The position numbers were made by a program, and so were the translations under genes. Below, piece after piece: positions 2,088 to 24,409 of a DNA stretch of 33,322 bases. The stretch's first letter is position 1; every line of letters begins with the position of its first letter. The stretch is from Candidatus Altiarchaeota archaeon (lineage in GTDB: Archaea > Altiarchaeota > Altiarchaeia > IMC4 > SCGC-AAA252-I15): assembly GCA_043822165.1 (NCBI GenBank), contig JBDRCA010000163.1, positions 1-33,322 on the forward strand. Direction: 5' to 3'. The notes under the pieces were generated by a model. That model was not told where the DNA came from. It saw only the letters and a program-made list of their open reading frames with translations, and made no database searches.

Positions 2088-2354
2088 ATGAAAGAAAGTC
2101 TGAGGAAAAAAATAGTGGTTGACCCAAAGATTATGGTGGGCAAACCCGTGATAAAAGGGACGAGGATTCCTGTAGATGCAATCATCAAAAGGATGGCGGA
2201 CGGCTTAACCATCGAAGAGATACTTGTTGATTACCCGAAGCTTGTGAGAGACGACATAAAAGCCGCCCTACAGTACAGCATAGATGTCCTGAGAGGCGAG
2301 GACGTGGTACCTCTGGTAATAAAAGGGGGAAAGCATGCGGCTCCTAGTCGATGA
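2088..2354 (+). CDS. DUF433-family protein, putative antitoxin of a DUF433/DUF5615 pair
   Basis: MVGKPVIKGTRIPVDAIIKRMADGLTIEEILVDYPKLVRDDIKAALQY is the typical DUF433 core. It overlaps the next ORF by 20 nt. Confidence 0.8.
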   Translation: MKESLRKKIVVDPKIMVGKPVIKGTRIPVDAIIKRMADGLTIEEILVDYPKLVRDDIKAALQYSIDVLRGEDVVPLVIKGGKHAAPSR

Positions 2355-2682
2355 AAGCACCGGCAAAAGACTTGCAGAACTTCTGAAAAAAGAAGGCCAT
2401 AATACTCTTTTTGTCGGGGATGCGATTCCATCTGCTACCGATGAAGAAGTCATAAAGAAGGCCAAAAACGAGAACAGGATTCTTGTAACAGACGATAAGG
2501 ACTTTGGGGAGTTGGTTTTTAGAATGAAGAAGCCAGTAAGCGGAGTCATACTATTGAGAACCGCAACGCACCCGGATGAGCGACTCAAGATACTGGTGAA
2601 TCTGATAAAGACGTATGACTTGACAAACAAGTTCATTGTCGTCAAAGAAGGGGTCGTAAGAATAAGAACGATAAAACCCTAA
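2335..2682 (+). CDS. DUF5615-family PIN-like protein, putative toxin
   Basis: MRLLVDES...GHNTLFV...TDEEVIKKAKNENRILVTDDKDFGELV...GVILLR matches the DUF5615/COG4634 PIN-like pattern. A G-rich SD-like run lies upstream. Confidence 0.8.
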   Translation: MRLLVDESTGKRLAELLKKEGHNTLFVGDAIPSATDEEVIKKAKNENRILVTDDKDFGELVFRMKKPVSGVILLRTATHPDERLKILVNLIKTYDLTNKFIVVKEGVVRIRTIKP

Positions 2683-2701: not shown

Positions 2702-2759
2702 ATGTGGGCCGTGCCTTAAGTCGGGGAAAGTTGGCGCGGAAATGTCTGTGTCAGAGTGA
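2694..2759 (+). pseudogene. Relic of the last ~20 codons of a Gfo/Idh/MocA oxidoreductase gene (paralogous to the 3-prime end of 1096-2046)
   Basis: Translates to ICGPCLKSGKVGAEMSVSE*, versus ICELCLKSAKIGAEIPVFD* at the end of 1096-2046. About 33/45 nt are identical over 2715-2759 vs 2002-2046, with the same length to the stop codon. Confidence 0.6.
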
Positions 2760-3686
2760 ATTGTACCAGTCTACGAACAAGGGTATTCCTTCCTCGATTT
2801 TCACTTTCGGCTCATAGCCGAGAAGCTTTTTCGCCTTCGAGATGTTAGCGTAAGTGATTGGGACGTCTCCTGCCTGAACCGGTTTTTTCTCGATTACGGC
2901 TTTTTTACCGAGTGCATCATCTATCAGTGATATCAGGTAGCTTAATTCGACTGTCTTCGAGTCCCCGAGATTTATGATTTCGTAGCCGAGCTTTTTCTCC
3001 CATGCGGCGACCACGCCGTCCGCGATGTCTGAGACGTACGTGTAGTCTCTTTTTGCCTTACCGTCGCCGAAGACTGGGATAGGCTCTCCTTCGCTTATCG
3101 CCTTCGTGAACTTGTAAACCGCCATGTCAGGCCTACCCCGCGGCCCATAGACCGTGAAAAAACGAAGACACGAAATATTCATCCCATACAAGTGATGATA
3201 GACGTGGCAGAGCGCCTCCCCGGCAAGTTTTGAGGACGCGTAAGGAGAAATCTGGTTGTCCACCTTATCCTCCTCGCTGAAAGGAACCTTCTCGTTCACC
3301 CCGTAAACGCTCGAAGACGAGCCGAAGACGAAATTATCAATATTTTTCTCCCGGCAAAGCTCAAGCAGGTTAAGGGTTCCCTCAACGTTTACTTTGACAT
3401 AAACTTGCGGGTTTTTTATTGACGGTCGAACTCCTGCTCTGGCAGCCAAGTGAATGACCGACTCAACGCCATCGAATGCTTTTGAAACCGAGGCTTTTTC
3501 TGTTATGTCTGCTTTAACGAACTTGAAGTCTTCACATTCAAGTTCCGCAAGATTTCTCTTTTTTACTTCAGGATTGTAGAAGTCGTTTAAATCGTCAACG
3601 CAAACAACTTCTTCTCCTCTGGAAAGCAGCTTCTCGCAGACGTGGCTTCCTATGAATCCGGCGCCGCCGGTTACGAGCACAGTCAT
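2751..3686 (-). CDS. NAD-dependent epimerase/dehydratase, UDP-glucuronate 4-epimerase-like
   Basis: GGAGFIGSH Rossmann motif, YASSK catalytic motif, LRFFTVYGPRGRPDMA signature typical of UDP-GlcA 4-epimerases. Confidence 0.8.
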   Translation of the reverse strand: MTVLVTGGAGFIGSHVCEKLLSRGEEVVCVDDLNDFYNPEVKKRNLAELECEDFKFVKADITEKASVSKAFDGVESVIHLAARAGVRPSIKNPQVYVKVNVEGTLNLLELCREKNIDNFVFGSSSSVYGVNEKVPFSEEDKVDNQISPYASSKLAGEALCHVYHHLYGMNISCLRFFTVYGPRGRPDMAVYKFTKAISEGEPIPVFGDGKAKRDYTYVSDIADGVVAAWEKKLGYEIINLGDSKTVELSYLISLIDDALGKKAVIEKKPVQAGDVPITYANISKAKKLLGYEPKVKIEEGIPLFVDWYNSL

Positions 3687-3725
3687 GGTATATAAAATAA
3701 GGTTTGTTTATTTTAATTGGATAAG

Positions 3726-3830
3726 ATGTGCTCTGAAGGCGAAGACGGGAAAGGCAAGGAAAAAAAGTTGAGCAAAAAGGACGAGGAGGAGATTAAGAGG
3801 CGTCTTCGGGCTCTGGGTTACCTAGACTGA
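3726..3830 (+). CDS. 34-aa micro-ORF consisting of an acidic/basic linker plus the tail RLRALGYLD
   Basis: ATG about 27-36 nt downstream of TATA-like tatataaaata. Its C-terminal peptide is shared at amino-acid level, with different codons, with the next two ORFs. Confidence 0.35.
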   Translation: MCSEGEDGKGKEKKLSKKDEEEIKRRLRALGYLD

Positions 3831-3862: not shown

Positions 3863-4072
3863 ATGTCTTCTGAGAAAACCAGGTACACTACGGTCAGCAT
3901 CCCCATAGAGCTTGCCGAAAAGGCTAAAAAACAAATCAAGGGCACTGGCTTCAAGAATCTGTCAGACTACGTCGCATACCTTCTCCGCGAAATAGTCGCA
4001 TCTCGCAGAGACTGGGATGAAGGCGACCTGGAAAAAGTAAAGGAGAGACTAAGAGCACTCGGCTACCTGTAA
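3863..4072 (+). CDS. Ribbon-helix-helix (CopG-like) small DNA-binding protein with C-terminal RLRALGYL tail
   Basis: TTVSIPIELAEKAKKQIK...NLSDYVAYLLREIV fits a strand-helix-helix RHH pattern. It ends 1 nt before cysD and has an AT-rich TATA-like region upstream. Confidence 0.7.
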   Translation: MSSEKTRYTTVSIPIELAEKAKKQIKGTGFKNLSDYVAYLLREIVASRRDWDEGDLEKVKERLRALGYL

Positions 4073-4073
4073 A

Positions 4074-4880
4074 ATGGACTACTTGGACGAACTGGAGAGC
4101 AACAGCATCTATGTCATGCGGGAGGCATACAAAAAGTTCAGGAAGCTTGCGATGCTCTGGAGTGTGGGAAAGGATTCGACAACCCTCATATGCCTTGCTA
4201 GGAAGGCTTTTTACGGGAGAGTGCCTTTTCCCGTAATCCACATAGACACGGGGAGGAAGTTCAGGGAAATGTACGAGTTCCGGGACCGCTGCGTAAGAGA
4301 ATGGGATTTGAAGCTTATAGTGGCCTGCAAAAAAGACGCAGACGAGCGCGGCATCACGCCTAAAGACAAGATAGCGTGCTGCGACTACCGCAAAACTCAG
4401 GCGCTAAAAGACGCCATTTCAGAGCACGGGTTCGAAGCCTTGATTCTAGGGATACGCCGCGACGAACACGGGGTGCGAGCCAAGGAGCGGGTTGTTAGCC
4501 CCAGGGACAAGGATTTTTCCTGGAACTACAAGGATCAGGCGCCGGAGCTTTGGAACCAGTACAAGACTAAAAGGGAGGGCGAGCAACACCTCCGGATACA
4601 CCCGCTTCTTGCCTGGACGGAGCAAGACGTGTGGCGCTACATAAAGCGTGAAAACCTCCCCGTGAATCCTCTTTATTTTTCAGGCGCCAGAGAGCGCGGG
4701 AAACGATACAGGAGCCTGGGATGCGAGTGCTGCACGAATCCTGTGGAGAGCGCCGCGAAAACAGTGGACGAAATAATAGCGGAAATAGAGTCCTCCCGGC
4801 AATCCGAGCGCTCTGGGCGCGCCCAAGACAAGGAGACCTCAGATGCCATGCAAAAATTGAGGGCGTTGGGGTACATGTGA
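4074..4880 (+). CDS. cysD: Sulfate adenylyltransferase subunit 2 (CysD)
   Basis: PP-loop SVGKDS, LARKAFY...PFPV.H.DTG.KFREMYEFRD, RRDE...RAKER, WTEQDVW. It is close to E. coli CysD along the whole length and is followed by cysN. Confidence 0.9.
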   Translation: MDYLDELESNSIYVMREAYKKFRKLAMLWSVGKDSTTLICLARKAFYGRVPFPVIHIDTGRKFREMYEFRDRCVREWDLKLIVACKKDADERGITPKDKIACCDYRKTQALKDAISEHGFEALILGIRRDEHGVRAKERVVSPRDKDFSWNYKDQAPELWNQYKTKREGEQHLRIHPLLAWTEQDVWRYIKRENLPVNPLYFSGARERGKRYRSLGCECCTNPVESAAKTVDEIIAEIESSRQSERSGRAQDKETSDAMQKLRALGYM

Positions 4881-4882
4881 GG

Positions 4883-6148
4883 ATGGAGAATCTCAAGCTT
4901 GTGATTGTAGGCCACGTCGACCACGGCAAGTCGACGCTTATAGGGCGGCTATTCTACGATACCGGAAGCCTTCCCGATGGGAAGGTCCAGGAGATACGCG
5001 AAATATGTGCGGCGCTTGGAAGAGACTTTGAGTTCGGCTTCGTAATGGACAATCTCTCAGAGGAGAGGGACCAGAGCATAACCATCGATACTGCCCAGAA
5101 GTTTTTCAAAACCGGGAAGCGCAGATACACGATAATTGATGCGCCAGGGCACGTCGAATTCATTAAAAACATGATTACCGGGGCAAGCCAGGCCGACGCC
5201 GCAATACTAATCGTGGACGTTCAGGAGGGGGTGCGCGAGCAGACCCGCCGACACGCATACATTCTCGGAATGCTTGGTTTGAGCCAGGTTATAGTCTGCA
5301 TCAACAAGATGGACAAGGCAGATTACGCGGAAGACCGTTTCGACGAGGTCGCGGGGAAGCTATCAGCATTCCTTGATGAAATAAACATTAAGCCCTACTA
5401 CATTATCCCTGCTTGCGCAAAAGACGGGGACAACATAGCGGAAAAATCCGGAAAAATACCCTGGTACACCGGCCCCACAATACTTGCTGCCCTTGACCAG
5501 TTCAAACTATCAACACCCCCAAAAAACAAGCTCCTCAGGTTCCCAGTCCAAGACGTCTACAAGTTCGACGAAAAAAGGATTATCACAGGCAGGATAACAA
5601 GCGGGACAATAAGACCCGGAGAGGAAATAATGGTGCTCCCAAGCGGGGAGAAAACCAAGGTAAACTCAATCGAGCAGTGGCAGTCAGACAAAAAGAACCA
5701 GTTCGGGCGCGGAAAATACTATCATCCATCATCGGCCGGAGCAGGCAAAAGCAGCGGAGTAATGCTTGAAGAAAAACTCTTCGTTGACAGAGGAGACGTG
5801 ATAGTCTCCCCGGCAGATGCGCCCAGGGTCGCCGACTCGTTTAAGGCTCACGTCTTCTGGCTCGACAAAAAACCATATTCATCCGGCGAGCGGCTGACGT
5901 TCAAGTGCGCGACCCAGGAAGTCATGTGCGAAATAGAGAAAATAGAAAAAATCATCGATTCATCAACGCTTAAAACCATCTCCGAGAACGCAAAGGAAAT
6001 CAAAAACAGGGAAGTCGCAGACATAACCTTAAAGACCGCGAAACCCGTGGTAATCGAAAACTTCAATAAAACGCCCGAACTCGGCCGCTTCGTCTTGGAG
6101 CGCGCAGACACGTGCGCCGGGGGAATCATAACGGAGGCAAACCTGTGA
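4883..6148 (+). CDS. cysN: Sulfate adenylyltransferase subunit 1 GTPase (CysN), without a fused APS kinase domain
   Basis: G1 GHVDHGKST, G3 DAPGH, G4 NKMD, EF-Tu-like beta-barrel domains. ATG at 4883 was chosen over the upstream extension to 4721, which overlaps cysD. Confidence 0.9.
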   Translation: MENLKLVIVGHVDHGKSTLIGRLFYDTGSLPDGKVQEIREICAALGRDFEFGFVMDNLSEERDQSITIDTAQKFFKTGKRRYTIIDAPGHVEFIKNMITGASQADAAILIVDVQEGVREQTRRHAYILGMLGLSQVIVCINKMDKADYAEDRFDEVAGKLSAFLDEINIKPYYIIPACAKDGDNIAEKSGKIPWYTGPTILAALDQFKLSTPPKNKLLRFPVQDVYKFDEKRIITGRITSGTIRPGEEIMVLPSGEKTKVNSIEQWQSDKKNQFGRGKYYHPSSAGAGKSSGVMLEEKLFVDRGDVIVSPADAPRVADSFKAHVFWLDKKPYSSGERLTFKCATQEVMCEIEKIEKIIDSSTLKTISENAKEIKNREVADITLKTAKPVVIENFNKTPELGRFVLERADTCAGGIITEANL

Positions 6149-6873
6149 TAACCGTAATCGCCATAGACGCGCTCGAATACTTGCTCGTCGAAGAATACGG
6201 CAACAAAAACCTCAAACAAGCATCATACGGCAAAACAGACATAACAGAGTTCAGGGAGCCACGAACAATGGTCCTGTGGAGCTCGTTTATGACAGGCGCA
6301 AACAAGGAAAAAGAAGTGCTAGCTAAAGGCGACAAGGAAATGTGGAACATTCGTTGGCCAATAGAAGATACTTTTTTCTCTGGATTCGAGAACCCGAAGA
6401 TAATAGATTTGCCGGGATTAAACTACGACACTAAAGTACACGACAAATCAAGAAGGCTTCTAAAGGAATTCTTCGACGCAGAAGAAGCCGGAGAAAAAGA
6501 GAAAAAAAGAAAAGAATATAATGAAGACGCATTCAGGCACCACCGAAACGTCAAGAAAGAATTCCTCGCCTCTTTAACCGGAGACTACGACTTCCTGCTG
6601 GGCTACTTCTGCCTAACAGACGTAGTCGGCCACCTAAACTTCGGAAACAAGACCATGATGAAACTCATACACCAAGACCTTGACGAAACAGCCGGAAAAA
6701 CAACGGAAAAATCAGACAAAACCATAATACTCTCAGACCACGGCATGAAAGCAATCGGAGCATTCGGAGACCACAGCAAATACGGATACTGGAGTACAAG
6801 CTGGAAACAAAACCTGAAAAAACCGAAGATAACAGACTTCAAGGAAATAATACTCAAACTAAAGAACCAATAA
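6145..6873 (+). CDS. Minimal alkaline-phosphatase-superfamily protein (type I phosphodiesterase / nucleotide pyrophosphatase-like), ~242 aa
   Basis: All core metal/nucleophile motifs are recognisable: VIAIDALEY, PRTMVLWSSFMTG (Thr nucleophile position), TDVVGH, LSDHGM, FGDHS. The GTG start overlaps the cysN stop (GTGA), with GGAGG 7 nt upstream. Confidence 0.7.
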   Translation: MITVIAIDALEYLLVEEYGNKNLKQASYGKTDITEFREPRTMVLWSSFMTGANKEKEVLAKGDKEMWNIRWPIEDTFFSGFENPKIIDLPGLNYDTKVHDKSRRLLKEFFDAEEAGEKEKKRKEYNEDAFRHHRNVKKEFLASLTGDYDFLLGYFCLTDVVGHLNFGNKTMMKLIHQDLDETAGKTTEKSDKTIILSDHGMKAIGAFGDHSKYGYWSTSWKQNLKKPKITDFKEIILKLKNQ

Positions 6874-7969
6874 CCTCCTCAACAGACTCGCAAACCGTAT
6901 TGACCTGTTTATCAGTCAAGGCAAGCCCGCTAGGAAGATAAAAACCATACCTGGAGATGTGCTCCGTAACAGGATAGGATTCACCGTCAAACAAACCCAA
7001 ATCTCGAAGGCACGGTTGCTGGTGGAGGCCTATGAAGAAGGAGCGCGTTCCAACTCCTTTCTCTTTGAGGAGGTTCATCATCTCTTCTGCGGTGACGCCG
7101 AGTTTCTCGTCCAGTTCCACGGTATACATCCAGTAGACGTTTTTAGCCCATTTTTTCTCTACCGGCAGTTTTAATCCGTCAATCCTTGAAAGACGCTTAG
7201 TGTACTCTGCAGCGTTTTTTCTTTTCATCTCTATGAACTTGTCAATGCATTCAAGCTGCGCCAACCCGACCGCAGCCTGCAGGTTAGTCATCCTGAAGTT
7301 GTAGCCCAATTCTTTATGTAAGAATCTTTTCTCCGGGTTGTGGGCGAGATTCCTGTAAGAGCGCGCACGTTCGGCGGCTTCACAGTCGTTTGTCACTACC
7401 ATCCCTCCTTCCCCTGTCGTTACTATCTTATTCGCGTAAAAGCTGAATGAGCCAACATCCCCGATTCCTCCACAGCGTTTGCCCTTGTACTCTGCCCCGT
7501 GCACTTCTGCGGCATCCTCAACGACCTTCAAGCCATGATTTCGCGCAACCTTAAGTAGTGGGTCCATGTTTACAGGGTGTCCGTACATGTGAACAGGCAT
7601 GACAGCCTTCGTCTTCTCGGTTATTTTACCTTCGACTTGGGAGACGTCCATGTTGTATGTTTCAGATTCTACGTCAACGAGCACGGGCGTTGCGCCAACA
7701 CGCAGTGCCGCCAGCGCACAAGAGATTATCGTAAAAGACGGCATAATGACTTCATCATCTCTTGTGACTCCAGCAGCCGCCAGAGAAACCTCGAGTGCCG
7801 CCGTTCCGTTGCAGACTGCTACACCATGTTCGCACCCTACGTAGTGTGCGAATTCATCCTCGAATTTTTTTACGAACGGACCCTCAGAGGAAATCCAACC
7901 AGTATCTATGCACTCGATTAAATACTTTTTCTCGTTCCCGCAAAACAAAGGCTCATTTACCGGAATCAT
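6854..7969 (-). CDS. DegT/DnrJ/EryC1/StrS-family PLP-dependent sugar aminotransferase (perosamine-synthase-like)
   Basis: WISSEGPFVKKFE...AVCNGTAALE N-terminal pattern, FSFYANKIVTTGEGGM (PLP-Lys region), NFRMTNLQAA. ATG at 7969 was preferred to the GTG at 7981. Confidence 0.85.
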   Translation of the reverse strand: MIPVNEPLFCGNEKKYLIECIDTGWISSEGPFVKKFEDEFAHYVGCEHGVAVCNGTAALEVSLAAAGVTRDDEVIMPSFTIISCALAALRVGATPVLVDVESETYNMDVSQVEGKITEKTKAVMPVHMYGHPVNMDPLLKVARNHGLKVVEDAAEVHGAEYKGKRCGGIGDVGSFSFYANKIVTTGEGGMVVTNDCEAAERARSYRNLAHNPEKRFLHKELGYNFRMTNLQAAVGLAQLECIDKFIEMKRKNAAEYTKRLSRIDGLKLPVEKKWAKNVYWMYTVELDEKLGVTAEEMMNLLKEKGVGTRSFFIGLHQQPCLRDLGLFDGESYPVTEHISRYGFYLPSGLALTDKQVNTVCESVEEVIGSLV

Positions 7970-7971
7970 AG

Positions 7972-8373
7972 TCAAAACCACTCCTTGTCGTCTACTCCGG
8001 CGTACGGTCCCTGCTTGACCTCAATGATTTCTGTTTCATCGAGGAATTCAAACCCGTGGCCGCCTGAAACCAAGATGATGACATCCCCCCTTCTTAAGAC
8101 TCTGTCGCAGACGAAAGTTTTGTCGTCATCATACAATCTAACTTTAACCTTGCCCTTCCTGACAAAAAGAACCTCCTGAGTCAACGTAATAGTCCTCTCA
8201 TTTGGTTTATGACAGTGAGCTTTGATGACATCCCCTTTATCCTGACGTATGAATCCAAGCTGTTGAGAGTAATCGTCTGGCGTGAAAAAACGCGTACCAT
8301 GGCAAGAAAAATCAGACGATATTATGATTGCGAAAGTCTTCTCCCCCTTCTTTATCTCTTCAAAGTCAGCCAT
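7972..8373 (-). CDS. Cupin-fold protein of polysaccharide loci (WbuC/WxcM/FdtA-like)
   Basis: About 133 aa with a beta-barrel-type pattern: AHCHKP...EVLFVRKGKVKV...GGHGFEF...IEVKQGPY. GAGGT SD-like sequence 4 nt before the ATG at 8373. Co-oriented and contiguous with the aminotransferase. Confidence 0.6.
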   Translation of the reverse strand: MADFEEIKKGEKTFAIIISSDFSCHGTRFFTPDDYSQQLGFIRQDKGDVIKAHCHKPNERTITLTQEVLFVRKGKVKVRLYDDDKTFVCDRVLRRGDVIILVSGGHGFEFLDETEIIEVKQGPYAGVDDKEWF

Positions 8374-9078: not shown

Positions 9079-10166
9079 ATGTGCCATTCGTTGACTTGAA
9101 GCGCCAGTACGAGTCGATAAGAGACGAAGTAGACACTGCGATACAAAGGATACTTGACACCACGTCATTTATCGGCGGAAAAGAGTTATCCTCCTTCGAG
9201 GAAGAATTCGCATCCTTCTGCAAGGCCCACCACACCGTTGGAGTATCATCTGGAACATCGGCGCTCCAGCTTGCGCTAATAGCCCACGGAGTAGGCGGGG
9301 GAGACGAGGTCGTGACGGTATCGCATACCTTCACAGCGACCGCAGAGGCAATAGTCAATGTTGGGGCCAGACCCGTTTTCACGGATGTCGACGAAAAGAC
9401 GGGGAACATGGACGCAGGGAAACTGGAAGATGCGATTACTGCTAAAACAAAGGTTGTTCTCCCAGTCCACCTTTACGGCCAGCCTGCGGACCTGGACCAG
9501 ATAACCGAGGTTGCCGAGGAAAAGGGTTTGGTCGTAATCGAGGACGCGGCCCAGGCGCACGCAGCGGAATACAAGGGACGAAGAATCGGTTCCGTCTCAA
9601 CCACGTGCTTTAGCTTTTACCCCGGGAAAAACCTGGGCGCATACGGGGACGCGGGAGCAGTCACCACAAACGACGAAGAAATCGCAGACAAAATTAGGAT
9701 GCTTCGCGACCACGGCAGAACCGAAAAATACGTACACGAAAAAGTCGGATTCAATGAGCGAATGGACGCGCTCCAGGCTGCGGTACTAAAAGTAAAGCTC
9801 ACTCACCTCGAAGAGTGGACTGAGGCGAGGAGAAAGAACGCGGGACTTTACGGCAGGCTTCTGCGCGATACTTGCGTTGAGGCGCCGTTTGAGGCGGATT
9901 ACGCGCGACACGTATATCATCTCTACGTCGTACAGGCTGATGACCGGGACGGACTGCGCGAGCACCTTGAGAAAGCCGGTGTTGCAACTGGGATTCATTA
10001 TCCTCTCCCTCTTCACCTACAGCCCGCTTACTCGAGTCTCGGATACGCTAAAGGAGATTTCCCGGTAACTGAGCGGCTAACGGAAAGGATTCTTTCTCTC
10101 CCAATGTTTCCCGAGCTTAAGAAAGAGGAATTAGAGTACGTGTGCGAGAAGATTGGGGAGTTCTAG
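9075..10166 (+). CDS. DegT/DnrJ/EryC1/StrS-family sugar aminotransferase (WbpE/FdtB-like)
   Basis: [10 protein letters not shown]...FIGGKE...[44 protein letters not shown]. Confidence 0.85.
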
Positions 10167-11450
10167 TTTCTCCCTATTCCGCGATAAATTATTCCAGCCG
10201 ACTTGAATTTGTCGGCGTCCAAAAAATTCCTCCCGTCAACAAAAGCCTTTACGCCGCGCTCCTTGAGCTTTACTGCGTCAAGGTTTGCGTATTCCTTGTG
10301 GGCTGTCACAAGTATTGCGCCGTCAAGGGGGCCAAGAGCGTCTAGTTGTGCTGGGTGTCCTATACCTTCAAGCTCTTTTTCAGTGTAGAGGGGGTCGTTT
10401 ATGAATACTTTTGCGCCATCTTTCTTGAGCTTTCCTGCGACCTTGAGCGCGGGGGAAAACATCTTTTCTTTAACGTTCGGCCTGAAGGCCAGTCCCAGCA
10501 CTAGAATGTTTTTGCCTGAAAGACTCCCTCCGAGAGCATCCTTTAGAAGGCTTACAGTGTACTCTGGCATTTCATCGTTTATGGCGCGGGCATCTTGCGC
10601 AAGCCTTAATTTCACTGCTTTTTTCGATGCGTCTTTCATGAGAAAGTGCGGATACACGGGGGCGCAGTGGCCTCCCACTCCCGCTCCGGGCGAGAGTATG
10701 TGGGAGTGAGGGTTCGTGTTGGAGGCATAAATCACATCGGAAACATCTATGCCTCTAGTTTGAGCGTATCTCGCGAACTCGTTTGCGAGCGCGATGTTAA
10801 CGTCCCTGTAGGTCATCCCGAAAAGTTTTACTGCTTCGGCGGTCTCACAGTCCCTGACGGCGATTACTTTCACACCCAATACTTTCTCATAGAACTTGAC
10901 GCACCTTTTCGTGGACTCCTCGTTTATTCCGCCGACAATCTTCGGTATCCCCTCAAGGTCTTTGAATATCCTCCCTGATGAAACCCGCTCCGGGCTAAAA
11001 GCAAGGTAAAAATCAATCCCTGCTTTAAGCCCCCCCCGACTCAAGCAATGGGGCGATCCGCTCTCTTGTGCCGCCGACCGGGAGAGTCGTCTCATAGATT
11101 ACGAGGGTATTTTTCTTCAATCCTGCCGCGACATCCCTTGTGGCCGCATCAACTACTCTGTAATCAATGTTTTTCGCGTCGTCGACTAACAGGGGCACGA
11201 CGACTAAGACGACGTTAGCTTCAGACACTGCCTTTGACGTTTCAGTCGTTGCAGAAAGAAGTTTCTTTTCGACCAAGTCTCTGACTTTTCCTTTGAGTTC
11301 CGGCTCCTGCATGATGTGTGCAACTCCCGTATTCACGGACTCAACGACACTCGGATTAGAATCGCACCCGACAACGGGCAAACCCTTTCCCGCGACCTGG
11401 CAGGCCAAAGGCAAACCGATTTTCCCCAAACCCACAACGCATACTTTCAA
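10163..11450 (-). pseudogene. UDP-N-acetyl-hexosamine 6-dehydrogenase (WbpA/WecC family) split by a +1 frameshift inside a G8 run
   Basis: N-terminal ORF (11025-11450: KVCVVGLGKIGLP Rossmann motif) and C-terminal ORF (10163-11095: DFYLAFSPERV..., GVGGHCAP catalytic Cys) are contiguous parts of one family member. Removing one G gives ...LLESGGLKAGIDFYLAFSPERV. TTG start overlaps the upstream stop (TTGA), with AAGGTGAT SD upstream. Confidence 0.8.
11030..11037 (-). repeat. Homopolymer: G8 on the coding strand (C8 on +) at the frameshift site
   Basis: Counted directly: ...gcttaag CCCCCCCC gactc... on the + strand. Confidence 0.95.
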
Positions 11451-23078: not shown

Positions 23079-23735
23079 CCTGGATGATATACTCTAGTTC
23101 ATAAGGGTTTATTACCGGTTTATCGAAGTGGTCTTCCGTGATTCTCGGGCATGCAGTATTCACCCACGCATCCACTTGGAATGCGAGCACGTTATCCGGG
23201 CTCGTTCCTCGCCTGCGAAGAAGAAGGCTTTCTTGCCCGCAGCCTCAAGCCTATCCTTGATGTTCCAGGCTTCTTTTGCTTTCATCTGGCGGGTTTTAGT
23301 AGACACCAGTATCCCGAAGGTTTCCGCCGACGATGCTCTCGCGATTCTGCCTTTCCTCTTCGTTGTCAGTCTTGCGGCGTCTTCATCAGTTACTGGGGTT
23401 ATTTCGCGGGTTTCCGTGTTCAAGACGAGCACTCTCTTGCCTGTGTCGCAGGCAATCTTTAGGGGATGGAATCTACCGGAACCAACGTATAGTATGCACT
23501 CGACGCCTCCTGCAATCTTTGCCGCGTTTTGCGTGTCGCAGCCGAGAACCTGCCCGCCGACGAGCGCTTTTTTCCCGCTAGCCTCAAGACGTTTTTTCAC
23601 GTCTGGAAGAGTGTGCAGGTGCTGTATGGTGGATACGAGCCCGATTGTATTGAATTCTTTTAGTAGGCTCTGGTTTTCTTCCAGAATGGGCAGCGGATCT
23701 ATCCTGCTTTTGCAGGCTACATAGATCGTTTTCAT
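23059..23735 (-). pseudogene. dph2: Diphthamide synthase Dph2 remnant: N-terminal domain absent and a frameshift near 23191-23215
   Basis: Frame A (23160-23735) aligns with domains 2-3 of archaeal Dph2 (GQVLGCDTQ, YVGSGRFHPL, FGILVSTK). The family continues in another frame as TSPDNVLAFQVDAWVNTACPRITEDHFDKPVINPYE..., ending at 23059 inside the nadE start. No counterpart exists for the first ~95 residues, including the first cluster Cys. Confidence 0.7.
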
Positions 23736-24409
23736 CAATCCTTCTTTTTCTCAGGGCTCTTCCACACTTCAGTGTAGGATACTTCGGTTGACTGCATGAA
23801 CCTGAATAGTTCCGCCGACAAAGACGCTTTGCGGACGATGGCTGCCCTGTCACGGTAGGCTTTCTCGGGCACAGTTACCTCCACTTTCTTGCCCGTGACT
23901 TTAACGTCGAATCCTTCAACTGAACCGAAGTTTTTCTCGACCAGAAACAACGCCTTCTCCTTGTCGGTCGCGGATTCGGAGACGACGTTTAAGTCGTAGA
24001 CGAGCGTCTTGCCAGCCAAGTCGTGGTTGAAGTCTACTCGCACGCGCCCTCCTGCAACGGTCTGCACGCGGGCCGGCTGGCCGTCAAGCTCAACAGGCAT
24101 TCCCGGCATTGGATTGATTTTTTCTTTCTTGAAGACTTTGAGCGGCACAATCCGCAGGAGCGCGGGATTCCTGTCTCCGTAGGCTTTCTCTGGGGGGATT
24201 TCGATTTTCTGTTTCTCGCCGACTTTGGCTTTCGCAAGCGCCTCGTCCAATCCTTTGATGACTTGGCCTTCCCCGACTATTATCGGCGCCGCAGCGTATG
24301 TTCTCTTGTCGTCGAATATTCCGGCGTCTTTCGCCTTTTTCTCGTCGGTTGTGTCGAAGACTTGCCCGTCCTTTATCTGGGCTGTGTAGTCTATCTTAAT
24401 GAATCTCAT
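23735..24409 (-). CDS. Archaeal long-type FKBP peptidyl-prolyl cis-trans isomerase with insert-in-flap domain (SlyD/FKBP26-like)
   Basis: IKIDYTAQIKDGQVFDTT, PIIVGEGQVIKGLDEAL, IPPEKAYGDRNP, VRVDFNHDLAGKTLVYDLNVV. Confidence 0.85.
   Translation of the reverse strand: MRFIKIDYTAQIKDGQVFDTTDEKKAKDAGIFDDKRTYAAAPIIVGEGQVIKGLDEALAKAKVGEKQKIEIPPEKAYGDRNPALLRIVPLKVFKKEKINPMPGMPVELDGQPARVQTVAGGRVRVDFNHDLAGKTLVYDLNVVSESATDKEKALFLVEKNFGSVEGFDVKVTGKKVEVTVPEKAYRDRAAIVRKASLSAELFRFMQSTEVSYTEVWKSPEKKKD

What the first reader, a model, noticed from the sequence alone, without database searches (positions are those of the whole stretch)
4074..6873. Sulfate-activation pair cysDN inside a glycan-precursor island, with no APS kinase but a translationally coupled minimal NPP/alkaline-phosphatase-fold enzyme
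cysD-cysN sits between a UDP-GlcA 4-epimerase-like gene and sugar aminotransferases, not among sulfur-assimilation genes. CysN lacks the fused CysC domain. No APS kinase, APS/PAPS reductase or canonical PAPS sulfotransferase is visible anywhere in the window. The next gene starts at a GTG overlapping the cysN stop (GTGA, with GGAGG 7 nt upstream). It encodes a ~242-aa protein retaining every core motif of the nucleotide pyrophosphatase/phosphodiesterase branch of the alkaline phosphatase superfamily: D in VIAIDALEY, Thr in PRTMVLWSSFMTG, TDVVGH, LSDHGM, GDHS. That superfamily includes sulfatases and enzymes with promiscuous sulfuryl transfer, and NPPs are known to act on APS/PAPS-type phosphosulfate nucleotides. 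My inference is that the trio may be a self-contained module for sulfating a surface glycan or precursor directly from APS, or for controlling APS turnover. Its GC also looks lower than that of cysN.
Basis: partly seen in the sequence, partly recalled or inferred. Interest (0 to 1): 0.7.

Follow-up and report, generated by a model that had tools for sequence, protein, structure and literature searches.

The report
Archaeal sulfate-activation cassette with mini phosphatase-fold enzyme
A very small alkaline-phosphatase-fold enzyme is almost always encoded directly after the sulfate-activating genes cysD-cysN across many archaeal phyla, and it most likely consumes the activated sulfate (APS) on the spot, which offers a testable route to how these archaea sulfate their surface sugars without the usual PAPS machinery.

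Summary
cysD (4074-4880), a CysC-less cysN (4883-6148) and a 242-aa alkaline-phosphatase-superfamily gene (6145-6873, GTGA overlap, GGAGG 7 nt upstream) lie in a glycan-precursor island. The window has no APS kinase, second PAPS-reductase-type gene or canonical sulfotransferase.

The small protein keeps every bimetal ligand and the Thr nucleophile. Its model is confident (pLDDT 95.8) and resembles NPP enzymes most, but distantly.

It is not a local oddity. About 500 homologues (60-72% identical, about 240 aa) occur in many archaeal phyla. In almost every genome locus with enough flank the order is RHH regulator, cysD, (TauE or DUF2061 membrane protein), cysN, this gene. The cysN stop and its start usually overlap. 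No APS kinase lies within 10 kb in 80 loci.

Independent fusions of CysD-like domains to NPP-like or sulfatase-like domains exist. A CysD C-terminal peptide (L-x-x-LGY-hydrophobic) recurs on the RHH regulators, TauE loops and paralogous AP-fold enzymes in glycan clusters.

Best reading: an obligate third component that uses APS, most likely for sulfuryl transfer. Chemistry, acceptor and tail receptor are untested. A pull enzyme (pyrophosphatase or PPi-driven APS phosphorylation) is a serious rival.

The parts
3717..3830 (+). 37-aa mini-ORF (TTG start) made only of a Lys/Glu-rich linker and the tail ...RRLRALGYLD. It may be a relic of a second RHH gene or a tail-only peptide; coding status is uncertain.
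   Evidence: Many related loci carry two RHH genes upstream of cysD.
3863..4072 (+). 69-aa ribbon-helix-helix (CopG-type) putative regulator with an acidic linker and the C-terminal tail ...ERLRALGYL (tail codons 4049-4069).
   Evidence: - Family present in 56 loci.
- The tail motif is found in 82 of 82 members.
- 8 of 18 members hit Pfam RHH_1, best E 8e-6.
- Weak NikR RHH matches in PDB.
4074..4880 (+). cysD, the ATP sulfurylase catalytic subunit (PP-loop SVGKDS). Its C-terminal tail is ...QKLRALGYM (codons 4857-4877).
   Evidence: - NF003587 351 bits, cut-off 195.
- 1ZUN_A 220 bits.
- Tail residues L262, G266 and Y267 are invariant in 30 CysD/CysD-like proteins.
- In the AF2 model the core is above pLDDT 90 and the tail helix is at 70-80.
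4883..6148 (+). cysN, an EF-1alpha-like GTPase subunit of 421 aa with no fused APS-kinase (CysC) domain.
   Evidence: - GTP_EFTU plus domains 2 and 3 are present; there is no PF01583 hit.
- TIGR02034 335.9 against cut-off 336.1; EF-1alpha equivalog 335 against 540.
- PDB: 1ZUN_B 245 bits, archaeal EF1A 285 bits.
- Always adjacent to cysD in relatives.
6133..6137 (+). GGAGG Shine-Dalgarno-like element inside the end of cysN, 7 nt before the GTG of the next gene.
   Evidence: Read. Similar GGAGG/GGAGGT elements lie upstream of the homologous starts in other loci.
6145..6873 (+). 242-aa minimal alkaline-phosphatase-superfamily (NPP-like) enzyme, called 'AP240' in this report.
- Metal ligands: D8 (6166-6168), D159, H163, D198, H199, H210.
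- Nucleophile: T41 (6265-6267).
- It has no signal peptide, so it is taken to be cytoplasmic.
- Its start overlaps the cysN stop (GTGA).
2751..3686 (-). NAD-dependent sugar epimerase/dehydratase (GalE/TviC-like), the divergent neighbour of the cassette.
   Evidence: The homologue sits beside the fusion gene in L085, 53% identical.
6854..7981 (-). DegT/LegC-type sugar aminotransferase, convergent with AP240. The two 3' ends overlap by 20 nt.
   Evidence: Homologue in L085, 50% identical.

Best explanation
The 242-aa protein (AP240) is the invariant third component of an archaeal sulfate-activation cassette.

**Proposed flow**
- An RHH regulator controls expression.
- Often a TauE or DUF2061 membrane protein brings in sulfate.
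- CysD, driven by the CysN GTPase, makes APS.
- AP240 is translated in step with CysN and takes the APS directly. It occupies the place held by the fused APS kinase (CysC) in bacterial CysNC.

**Most likely chemistry:** sulfuryl transfer. The Thr41/two-metal centre attacks the phosphosulfate anhydride, AMP leaves, and the sulfuryl group passes to an acceptor. The acceptor would be a small, strongly anionic and universal one, such as a nucleotide-sugar or another glycan precursor. The result would be PAPS-independent sulfation of surface glycans.

**Wider system.** Larger or insertion-bearing AP-fold paralogues in glycan clusters would be acceptor-specific relatives. Many of them, together with the regulators and the transporter loop, carry a copy of the CysD C-terminal peptide. 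I read this peptide as a docking tag for the APS-producing complex.

**Shown:** fold, intact catalytic residues, near-obligate synteny and coupling, co-variation with CysD and CysN, domain fusions, the shared tail, the glycan context, and the absence of a nearby APS kinase.

**Inferred:** that APS is the substrate, that sulfur rather than phosphorus is attacked, the acceptor, and what the tail binds.
For: 1. **Active enzyme.** All seven AP-superfamily catalytic residues are invariant in 40 homologues. The model is confident (pLDDT 95.8). The best structural neighbours are NPPs (E about 2e-5, TM 0.43-0.52).
2. **Obligate partnership.**
   - In loci L005-L084 plus L001-L004 the gene follows cysN in essentially all loci with flank; only L057 lacks cysDN.
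   - 31 of 68 loci have a 4-nt stop/start overlap.
   - Median pairwise identity is CysD 68.7%, CysN 59.9% and AP240 61.8%, correlated at r about 0.5-0.6.
3. **No APS kinase** appears in about 1.03 Mb around 80 cassettes (probe validated).
4. **Rosetta-stone fusions** link CysD-like PF01507 domains to AP-fold domains.
   - P0259/P0271 carry an AP240-sister domain; P0272-P0278 carry a small NPP-like domain.
   - P0281-P0290, P0303 and P0305 carry a sulfatase domain, including a Nitrospira protein.
   - The P0272 AP domain is homologous to AP240 (hhalign 96%, E 2.5e-9).
   - P0272 lies in a glycan island homologous to this window's, in place of cysD-cysN-AP240 and with no cysN.
5. **Sulfate link.** A TauE-family permease (22 loci) or DUF2061 (18 loci) is inserted between cysD and cysN.
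6. **Glycan link.** Of 44 loci of at least 12 kb, 31 have glycan-type neighbours and 19 have extra large AP or sulfatase-like genes. L067 has four AP-fold paralogues beside pyruvyl- and methyl-transferases and a flippase.
7. **Tail motif counts.**
   - RHH 82/82, CysD 62/63, TauE 15/22.
   - It also occurs on several AP or sulfatase paralogues and on 17 unclustered ORFs, against 11 of 923 other ORFs.
   - Tail-bearing sister enzymes sit in glycan clusters without cysDN nearby.
8. **Precedent.** Sulfatase-like AP-superfamily proteins Agl30/Agl31 are the N-glycan sulfotransferases of Halobacterium salinarum (PMC11980604).
9. **Residue pattern.** Residues shared with the sister family include the whole catalytic set and an N22-K30 motif. 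AP240-specific invariant residues include R40, K118, N126, H132 and H133, which suits an anionic small partner.
Against: - No biochemical datum exists for any member.
- NPP-type Thr/two-metal sites normally attack phosphorus. On APS that would merely release sulfate.
- A sulfotransferase with a specific acceptor would be expected to be less conserved than AP240 is. It is as conserved as CysN.
- AP240 lacks the insertion that its glycan-cluster sisters have, so it may have no macromolecular acceptor site.
- A quarter of the longer loci have no glycan or AP-fold neighbours.
- Some host lineages have APS/PAPS-reductase homologues, or cysC, elsewhere (PMC6286981; PMC7906910). APS could therefore be used for assimilation or by PAPS-dependent enzymes.
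- Similarity to Agl30/Agl31 themselves could not be tested.
- The tail receptor is unknown. CysN-less CysD-like proteins keep the tail, so it may not be a CysN-docking tag.
Confidence: 0.4

Rival explanations
1. Pull enzyme. AP240 removes the co-product of CysD rather than transferring sulfate. Either it is a dedicated inorganic pyrophosphatase, or it uses PPi through a phospho-Thr41 intermediate to phosphorylate the 3'-OH of APS. The second version would be a PPi-driven, ATP-independent replacement for APS kinase that turns both CysD products into PAPS + Pi.
For: - It sits exactly where CysC is fused in bacterial CysNC.
- Its substrates would be fixed and universal. That fits conservation equal to CysN and the lack of an acceptor insertion.
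- AP240-specific invariant basic residues (R40 next to the nucleophile, K118, H132, H133) suit PPi or a nucleotide.
- No APS kinase lies near any cassette.
- Fusion to CysD-like domains also fits a PAPS-synthase-like or ATPS-pyrophosphatase-like unit.
- From my own knowledge: AP-superfamily enzymes do phosphoryl transfer through phospho-Ser/Thr and can use PPi as donor, and ATP sulfurylase-pyrophosphatase fusions are known in some eukaryotes.
Against: - The closest fold relatives are diesterases or pyrophosphatases acting on nucleotides, not PPases or mutases.
- The large sulfatase-domain fusions to CysD-like domains are more naturally read as transferases with an acceptor site.
- The tail-bearing sister enzymes in glycan clusters also read better that way.
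- No downstream PAPS-dependent sulfotransferase was seen in any neighbourhood. That check used only a regex and cluster annotation.
Confidence: 0.25
2. Turnover control. AP240 is an APS (or PAPS/PAP) phosphodiesterase or phosphatase that hydrolyses excess activated sulfate or a by-product. It would protect CysDN from product inhibition or the cell from toxic nucleotides.
For: - NPP-like fold and motifs.
- From my own knowledge: NPPs can hydrolyse APS and PAPS, and APS strongly inhibits ATP sulfurylase.
- The minimal size suggests water as the acceptor.
Against: - Strict 1:1 translational coupling of a synthase with a hydrolase of its product would be a futile ATP + GTP cycle.
- PAP cannot arise without an APS kinase, and none is nearby.
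- It does not explain the CysD-sulfatase fusions in glycan clusters or the tail network.
Confidence: 0.12
3. Assimilatory cassette with an unrelated passenger. cysDN simply supplies APS for cysteine or cofactor synthesis through reductases encoded elsewhere. The AP-fold gene would then be a generic phosphodiesterase or a glycan phospho-group transferase (LtaS/EptA-like) that happens to be co-transcribed.
For: - APS/PAPS-reductase homologues and sulfite reductases are reported in ANME-2 and Methanoperedens, which carry the cassette (PMC6286981).
- Thr-nucleophile AP-fold enzymes in envelope clusters are often phospho-group transferases (my own knowledge).
Against: - Adjacency holds across at least ten archaeal phyla and in non-glycan contexts.
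- Stop/start overlaps are conserved.
- Divergence is correlated among the three proteins.
- Independent domain fusions with CysD-like proteins exist.
- Many hosts are DPANN archaea or sulfide-habitat anaerobes, which are unlikely to need sulfate assimilation (inference).
Confidence: 0.1

Closest known systems
Bacterial sulfate-activating complex CysD-CysN(-CysC) (E. coli, P. syringae 1ZUN, M. tuberculosis CysDNC)
   Same: - CysD is a clear orthologue (351 bits on NF003587; 220 bits to 1ZUN_A).
- CysN is an EF-1alpha-like GTPase encoded next to it.
- The conserved CysD C-terminal GY-hydrophobic end is present.
- A third activity that uses APS is attached directly after CysN.
   Different: - The third activity is not a P-loop APS kinase. 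It is a 240-aa alkaline-phosphatase-fold protein encoded as a separate, overlapping gene.
- The cassette also carries RHH regulators and a TauE or DUF2061 membrane protein.
- It usually sits in glycan islands rather than cys regulons.
Nucleotide pyrophosphatase/phosphodiesterases (NPP/ENPP, Pfam PF01663; e.g. Xanthomonas NPP 7MW8, ENPP1/3/5/6/7)
   Same: - Best fold matches.
- Two-metal site with D, D-x3-H, D-H and H ligands, and a Thr nucleophile.
- SDHGM motif.
   Different: - About 240 aa against about 380 or more in NPPs.
- TM-score is only 0.43-0.52 and sequence identity 11-18%.
- The Pfam hit barely passes and covers one third of the protein.
- It is cytoplasmic.
- It has a helical cap (residues 96-143) with its own invariant basic residues.
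- NPP's nucleotide slot was not demonstrable.
Agl30/Agl31 (VNG1056C/VNG1057C), sulfatase-like N-glycan sulfotransferases of Halobacterium salinarum (PMC11980604)
   Same: - Alkaline-phosphatase-superfamily proteins encoded in an archaeal glycan cluster.
- They are linked to sulfation rather than hydrolysis.
- The sulfate donor is undefined.
   Different: - They are large sulfatase-type proteins, one of them membrane-bound.
- No cysDN linkage is reported for them.
- Sequence relationship to AP240, or to the sulfatase-like neighbours found here, was not tested.
- Their function is genetically shown; AP240's is not.
Bifunctional or trifunctional PAPS synthases and ATP sulfurylase fusions of eukaryotes (ATPS-APS kinase, and ATPS-APK-pyrophosphatase in some algae; from my own knowledge)
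   Same: The principle of fusing or coupling the APS producer to the enzyme that removes a product. This overcomes the unfavourable equilibrium.
   Different: - A different ATP sulfurylase type (Sat, not CysD).
- The partner folds are a P-loop kinase and a family I PPase, not the alkaline-phosphatase fold.
Formylglycine sulfatases (PF00884)
   Same: - Same superfamily.
- They catalyse sulfuryl transfer to an active-site nucleophile.
- Sulfatase-domain proteins are fused to CysD-like domains and are neighbours of the cassette.
   Different: - AP240 has no C/S-x-P-x-R motif and no PF00884 hit.
- It has Thr plus two metal sites, not formylglycine plus one Ca.
- The one neighbouring 'sulfatase' whose N-terminal motif was read (L007_2) has ...WTPPSH..., i.e. 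Thr in place of the Cys/Ser and His in place of the Arg.

Membership tests
CysDN heterodimeric ATP sulfurylase | CysD: PP-loop ATP pyrophosphatase fold that scores above the curated CysD cut-off | tested here: met
   - NF003587 351.3 bits against cut-off 195.
- SVGKDS PP-loop.
- 1ZUN_A E 3.8e-64.
CysDN heterodimeric ATP sulfurylase | CysN: translational-GTPase paralogue distinct from EF-1alpha and encoded beside cysD | tested here: inconclusive
   - TIGR02034 335.9 against cut-off 336.1, missed by 0.2 bits.
- EF-1alpha equivalog 335 against 540, clearly failed.
- PDB scores are slightly higher for archaeal EF1A than for 1ZUN_B.
- Adjacency to cysD holds in all relatives.
- No phylogeny was made.
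CysDN heterodimeric ATP sulfurylase | GTP-dependent synthesis of APS from ATP and sulfate | not testable with these tools
   This needs an enzyme assay.
CysNC (APS kinase fused or adjacent) | P-loop APS kinase domain PF01583 | tested here: not met
   - No PF01583 hit on CysN.
- The CysC probe (236.8 bits on PF01583) finds nothing in the six-frame translation of the window plus 84 loci.
NPP / Type I phosphodiesterase (PF01663) | Alkaline-phosphatase core with six metal ligands and a Thr nucleophile | tested here: met
   - D8, T41, D159, H163, D198, H199 and H210 are invariant.
- The top Foldseek hits are NPPs, probability 1.00.
NPP / Type I phosphodiesterase (PF01663) | Full-length match to the family profile above the gathering score | tested here: inconclusive
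   - 25.5 bits against 23, covering only residues 118-204 and profile positions 157-224 of 342.
- The PDB profile search gives E 0.095 to ENPP7.
- TM-score normalised to the query is 0.43-0.52.
NPP / Type I phosphodiesterase (PF01663) | Nucleotide-binding slot and hydrolysis of nucleotide diesters or pyrophosphates | not testable with these tools
Formylglycine sulfatase (PF00884) | C/S-x-P-x-R signature and a PF00884 match | tested here: not met
   The sequence around the nucleophile is E-P-R-T-M-V-L-W, and there is no PF00884 hit.
Canonical PAPS-dependent sulfotransferases (PF00685, PF13469, PF03567) | P-loop-like 5'-PSB and 3'-PB motifs with a Pfam match | tested here: not met
   - No such Pfam hit on AP240 or on any window ORF scanned.
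- The 5'-PSB regex is negative in all loci.
Archaeal AP-superfamily glycan sulfotransferases (Agl30/Agl31 type) | AP-superfamily protein encoded in a glycan-assembly cluster | tested here: met
Archaeal AP-superfamily glycan sulfotransferases (Agl30/Agl31 type) | Sequence homology to VNG1056C or VNG1057C | not tested
Archaeal AP-superfamily glycan sulfotransferases (Agl30/Agl31 type) | Loss of glycan sulfation on deletion, or gain on heterologous expression | not testable with these tools
   This needs genetics and mass spectrometry.

The most novel reading that the evidence does not exclude
Archaea, and some bacteria, possess a PAPS-independent sulfation system built from two parts. One is CysD-type ATP sulfurylases. 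The other is alkaline-phosphatase-fold sulfuryl transferases that take APS directly.

The system would be organised by a short C-terminal peptide: an acidic linker followed by (I/V)K-x-RL-x-x-LGY-hydrophobic. The peptide is copied from the CysD C-terminus. It would act as a docking code shared by the catalytic subunit, the RHH regulators, a loop of the TauE sulfate permease and the acceptor-specific transferases. Together these would form a membrane-associated sulfation metabolon.

AP240 would be its constitutive core transferase. Alternatively it would be a PPi-driven APS 3'-phosphotransferase, which would be an equally new enzyme activity.
Probability: 0.3. Interest if true: 0.85.

Novelty: new variant of a known kind. 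Interest (0 to 1): 0.7.

Why it matters
**An open question in archaeal sulfation.** Sulfated glycans and lipids are known in archaea. The first archaeal sulfotransferases, which are sulfatase-like, were only identified in 2025. Their sulfate donor and mechanism are still unknown.

**Existing readings of these genes.**
- Metagenomic surveys read cysDN in DPANN archaea and methanogen or ANME relatives as 'sulfate reduction/assimilation'.
- The same surveys read the accompanying sulfatase-like genes as catabolic arylsulfatases (PMC8091004, PMC7906910, PMC6286981).

**What this cassette suggests.** Much of that gene content may instead be a dedicated surface-sulfation system that bypasses APS kinase and PAPS.

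**What it would add if confirmed.**
- A new catalytic use of the alkaline-phosphatase fold.
- A new partner for the CysDN G-protein machine.
- A compact enzyme set of about 240 aa for biocatalytic sulfation from ATP and sulfate without PAPS.
- A rare prokaryotic example of a short linear motif that wires a regulator, a transporter and enzymes to one complex.

**Testability.** All of this can be tested directly with three small soluble proteins.

Tried and rejected
1. **PDB sequence searches.** Sequence-only searches with the protein and with its family profile gave nothing significant (best E 0.095 to ENPP7). Only the fold search placed it.
2. **NCBIfam.** It has no model for the protein.
3. 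**Literature.** Searches for an APS-dependent or AP-superfamily sulfotransferase, for PAPS-independent sulfatase-like transferases, and for DUF2061 plus sulfate found no description of this family or of CysD-AP fusions.
4. **The tail's receptor.**
   - Papers on CysDN held in the library do not describe the CysD C-terminus.
   - The AF2 monomer of CysD gives the tail helix only pLDDT 70-80. That fits binding in trans but does not prove it.
   - No multimer prediction was possible.
5. **Haloarchaeal link.** I asked whether haloarchaeal-looking CysD-like proteins sit beside sulfatase-like genes, which would have tied the module to Agl30/31. The two contexts looked at (L090-L092) show no AP-fold neighbour.
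6. **Jackhmmer artefact.** A jackhmmer count of extra AP-fold paralogues was contaminated by RHH proteins recruited through the shared tail. I counted only ORFs of at least 200 aa and the BLAST clusters.
7. **Apparent exceptions.** L067 and L076 turned out to be artefacts of picking the first AP-fold hit. Both have the standard cassette.
8. **Foreign origin from lower GC.** Rejected as unsupported. Divergence of the three proteins is correlated.
9. **CysN as a true EF-1alpha.** Rejected. It fails the EF-1alpha cut-off by about 200 bits.
10. **Whole-genome searches.** Searching whole genomes for cysC, cysH or sulfotransferases was not possible. Only 10 kb flanks can be fetched.

Full report
**1. 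What is in the window**

- cysD is at 4074-4880.
- cysN has its ATG at 4883 and its stop at 6146-6148.
- A 242-codon gene starts at GTG 6145, overlapping the cysN stop (GTGA). GGAGG lies 7 nt upstream.

CysD is unambiguous: NCBIfam NF003587 gives 351 bits against a cut-off of 195, and P. syringae CysD 1ZUN_A gives E 4e-64.

CysN is a 421-aa EF-1alpha-like GTPase with no APS-kinase domain.
- It misses the CysN subfamily cut-off by 0.2 bits.
- It fails the EF-1alpha equivalog cut-off by about 200 bits.
- By sequence alone it scores slightly better against archaeal EF-1alpha structures than against 1ZUN_B.
- I call it CysN mainly because it is always paired with cysD.

The flanks are sugar-nucleotide genes:
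- an epimerase;
- DegT aminotransferases and acetyltransferases;
- UDP-glucose dehydrogenases;
- a flippase.

The window holds no APS kinase, no second PAPS-reductase-type gene and no canonical sulfotransferase.

The third gene has the lowest GC of the genes measured (0.431 against 0.506 for cysN and 0.539 for cysD).

**2. The small protein (AP240)**

Pfam gives only a marginal partial hit to Phosphodiest/NPP (25.5 bits, cut-off 23). NCBIfam and PDB sequence searches give nothing.

An alignment of 40 homologues shows D8, T41, D159, H163, D198, H199 and H210 to be invariant. These form the full two-metal, Thr-nucleophile set of the alkaline-phosphatase superfamily.

The AlphaFold model is very confident (pLDDT 95.8, pTM 0.92).
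- Its best PDB neighbours are all NPPs: snake-venom PDE, ENPP1/3/5/6/7 and Xanthomonas NPP.
- The matches are distant, with E about 2e-5, TM 0.43-0.52 and 11-18% identity.

At about 240 aa, with no signal peptide, it is a stripped-down cytoplasmic member of the fold. It has its own helical cap (residues 96-143).

**3. A conserved cassette, not a local accident**

The protein has about 500 homologues in the 5.8-billion-protein set. All are about 236-250 aa and 60-72% identical.

They come from many archaeal groups:
- Altiarchaeales;
- Woese-, Pace-, Nano-, Aenigm-, Micr- and Undinarchaeota;
- Hadarchaeota and Thermoplasmata;
- Methanomassiliicoccales and Methanofastidiosa;
- Methanosarcinales, including ANME-2, Methanoperedens and Methanothrix;
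- Methanoregula.

In 80 genome loci and 4 metagenome loci the order is RHH gene(s), cysD, [TauE permease or DUF2061], cysN, AP240, and often another RHH gene. Only L057 has AP240 without cysDN; two apparent exceptions were artefacts.

The cysN stop and the AP240 start overlap by 4 nt in 31 of 68 loci. They lie within -4 to +15 nt in 57 of 68.

Across 50 loci the median pairwise identity is 68.7% for CysD, 59.9% for CysN and 61.8% for AP240. The three values co-vary at r about 0.5-0.6. AP240 is therefore as constrained as the sulfate-activating subunits and evolves with them.

An APS-kinase probe (validated at 236.8 bits on PF01583) finds nothing in the six-frame translation of the roughly 1.03 Mb around the cassettes.

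**4. Fusions**

A search of 1.84 billion representatives with the family profile revealed a sister family of 270-320 aa. It has an insertion around residues 60-110. The search also found one protein (P0259) in which such a domain is fused to a CysD-like domain.

Searching with P0259 showed the theme to be recurrent.

| Proteins | Length | AP-fold part fused to the CysD-like domain |
|---|---|---|
| P0259, P0271 | 511-515 aa | AP240-sister domain |
| P0272-P0278 | about 470 aa | small NPP-like domain with a Ser nucleophile |
| P0281-P0290, P0303, P0305 | 690-790 aa | sulfatase domain (one protein annotated Nitrospira) |

All end in ...RLR-x-LGY(W/F).

The AP domain of P0272 is homologous to AP240 (hhalign 96%, E 2.5e-9).

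Its locus (L085) is a glycan island homologous to this window's.
- Identities are epimerase 53%, DegT 50%, a 134-aa ORF 48%, RHH 40% and DUF433 43%.
- There the fusion stands where cysD-cysN-AP240 stands here, and no cysN is nearby.

A bacterial sulfatase-CysD-like fusion lies next to a giant glycosyltransferase (L086).

Such Rosetta-stone fusions argue that AP-fold domains work directly on what a CysD-type enzyme makes.

**5. A shared C-terminal peptide**

CysD ends in ...QKLRALGYM. The upstream RHH protein ends in ...ERLRALGYL. A 37-aa ORF before it ends in ...RRLRALGYLD.

The motif L-x-x-LGY-x was counted across the loci.

| Protein group | Members with the motif |
|---|---|
| RHH proteins | 82 of 82 |
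| CysD | 62 of 63 |
| TauE permeases (in a Lys-rich internal loop) | 15 of 22 |
| Other ORFs | 11 of 923 |

It is also present on some large NPP-like and sulfatase-like neighbours and on some proteins of unknown family.

It aligns with the ...KKRQGYF end of bacterial CysD. L262, G266 and Y267 are invariant in 30 CysD and CysD-like proteins.

Many sister AP-fold enzymes carry an acidic linker plus ...IKKRL-x-x-LGYF(D).

Three such enzymes, from Hadarchaeota and others, lie in glycan clusters without cysDN within the available flanks. Those clusters hold a flippase, GT4 transferases, a methyltransferase and UDP-glucose dehydrogenase. Hadarchaeota do carry the cassette elsewhere (L031, L065, L084).

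I read the peptide as a docking tag borrowed from CysD. Its receptor is not identified.
- It could be CysN, CysD or AP240.
- CysN-less CysD-like proteins keep the peptide, so the receptor need not be CysN.

**6. Context**

Counts for the 44 loci of at least 12 kb:

| Neighbour type | Loci |
|---|---|
| glycan-type neighbours | 31 |
| additional large NPP-like or sulfatase-like gene | 19 |
| RHH gene | 37 |
| TauE or DUF2061 | 20 |

L067 (Woesearchaeota) has four AP-fold paralogues. They sit with a polysaccharide pyruvyl transferase, methyltransferases and a flippase around the cassette.

The one sulfatase-like neighbour whose motif was read has Thr where sulfatases have the formylglycine precursor.

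**7. What it most likely does**

*Shown:*
- an intact, conserved catalytic centre;
- near-obligate genetic and translational coupling to CysN and CysD;
- fusions to CysD-like domains;
- sulfate-type permeases inside the operon;
- the glycan context;
- no nearby APS kinase.

*Inferred:*
- The substrate is APS, the only specific product of CysD.
- The protein takes the role that CysC has in CysNC, namely immediate removal of APS.

Three chemistries are possible.

(a) Sulfuryl transfer from APS to an acceptor.
- I favour this at about 0.4.
- Large sulfatase domains fused to CysD-like domains and tail-bearing sisters in glycan clusters look like acceptor-specific transferases.
- AP-superfamily sulfotransferases now have genetic support in Halobacterium (Agl30/Agl31; PMC11980604).

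(b) A pull enzyme, at about 0.25.
- This would be a pyrophosphatase or, more interestingly, a PPi-driven APS 3'-phosphotransferase.
- It would explain AP240's very high conservation and its missing acceptor insertion.
- It would also explain its own invariant basic residues R40, K118, H132 and H133.

(c) APS/PAPS hydrolysis for turnover control, at about 0.12. Coupled 1:1 to synthesis, this would be futile.

A purely assimilatory reading with an unrelated passenger gene (about 0.1) fits reports of APS/PAPS-reductase homologues in ANME-2 and Methanoperedens (PMC6286981). It does not explain the coupling, the co-variation or the fusions.

**8. Comparison with what is known**

The system works like a CysDNC-type sulfate-activating complex whose third activity has been replaced.

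AP240 belongs to the alkaline-phosphatase superfamily and lies nearest the NPP branch. It is only a marginal member of PF01663. It is not a sulfatase, not an APS kinase and not a canonical sulfotransferase (see the membership table).

I found no description of the family, the fusions or the tail in the literature library.

Surveys of DPANN archaea and ANME record the cysDN genes as sulfate reduction or assimilation. They record the 'arylsulfatases' as catabolic.

I therefore rate it a new variant of a known kind. It has a realistic chance (about 0.3) of being the core of a PAPS-independent sulfation system organised by a short docking motif.

**9. Limits**
- No assay, no multimer model and no access to model coordinates.
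- No whole-genome view, so cysC, cysH or canonical sulfotransferases elsewhere cannot be excluded.
- The ORF calls in related loci were made with a simple longest-ORF rule.
- Five of the 80 loci are labelled as bacterial MAGs, which I suspect are binning errors but did not check.

Noticed in passing
window 3717-3830 (+): A 37-aa ORF (TTG start, stop two codons upstream) consists only of a Lys/Glu-rich linker and ...RRLRALGYLD. That is the CysD/RHH tail without any RHH body. It could be a relic of a second RHH gene or a free 'tail' peptide.
   Followed up: partly
window 4049-4069 and 4857-4877; loci L005-L084: The C-terminal peptide L-x-x-LGY-hydrophobic of CysD is copied onto all RHH regulators of the cassette. 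It also appears in an internal loop of most TauE permeases and on several NPP-like or sulfatase-like enzymes. The similarity is strong enough that jackhmmer seeded with tail-bearing enzymes recruited the RHH proteins.
   Followed up: yes
L025 6484-8607; L075 6658-8700; L076 4726-6801; proteins P0296, P0297, P0300, P0301: Some archaeal cysD genes of this cassette are interrupted by inteins (Intein_splicing plus LAGLIDADG homing endonuclease). The resulting ORFs are 680-712 aa.
   Followed up: partly
window 10163-11450 (-): A UDP-glucose/GDP-mannose dehydrogenase-family gene is split into two overlapping ORFs in different frames. The N-terminal NAD domain is at 11025-11450 and the central plus C-terminal domains at 10163-11095. 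This suggests a frameshift, a pseudogene or an assembly error.
   Followed up: partly
window 2088-2682 (+); L085 8003-8605: A DUF433 plus DUF5615/PIN-like pair (toxin-antitoxin-like) lies beside the epimerase next to the cassette. The same pair lies beside the AP-CysD-like fusion gene in the homologous island L085.
   Followed up: no
window 6854-6873: The 3' end of the AP240 gene overlaps the 3' end of the convergent DegT aminotransferase gene by 20 nt. No terminator-like hairpin was found between them.
   Followed up: no
proteins P0314, P0321, P0324, P0325, P0329-P0331: Proteins of about 700 aa on megabase-size contigs combine a CysD-like domain with an eEF1A-C-terminal-like domain and an APS kinase domain. 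They have no recorded GTP_EFTU domain. This looks like a compact CysD-(CysN remnant)-CysC fusion.
   Followed up: no
proteins P0309, P0311, P0319, P0326; loci L090-L092: Acidic, haloarchaeal-looking CysD-like proteins lack the insertion typical of CysN-paired CysD (W..Q.PE.W) but keep the ...RLRDLGYM tail. In L090 the gene follows a GT4 glycosyltransferase and a methyltransferase-like gene. No AP-fold neighbour was seen.
   Followed up: partly
loci L024, L046, L054, L068, L075: Five contigs that carry the archaeal-type cassette are deposited under bacterial MAG names (Cloacimonadota, Hydrothermota, Desulfobacteraceae, Planctomycetota, Saccharibacteria). These are probably binning errors rather than transfers.
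   Followed up: no
window 23160-23738 (-): The diphthamide-synthase-like ORF covers only positions 63-244 of the 302-position Pfam model (192 aa). It is overlapped by a long antisense ORF. The gene may be truncated or frameshifted.
   Followed up: no
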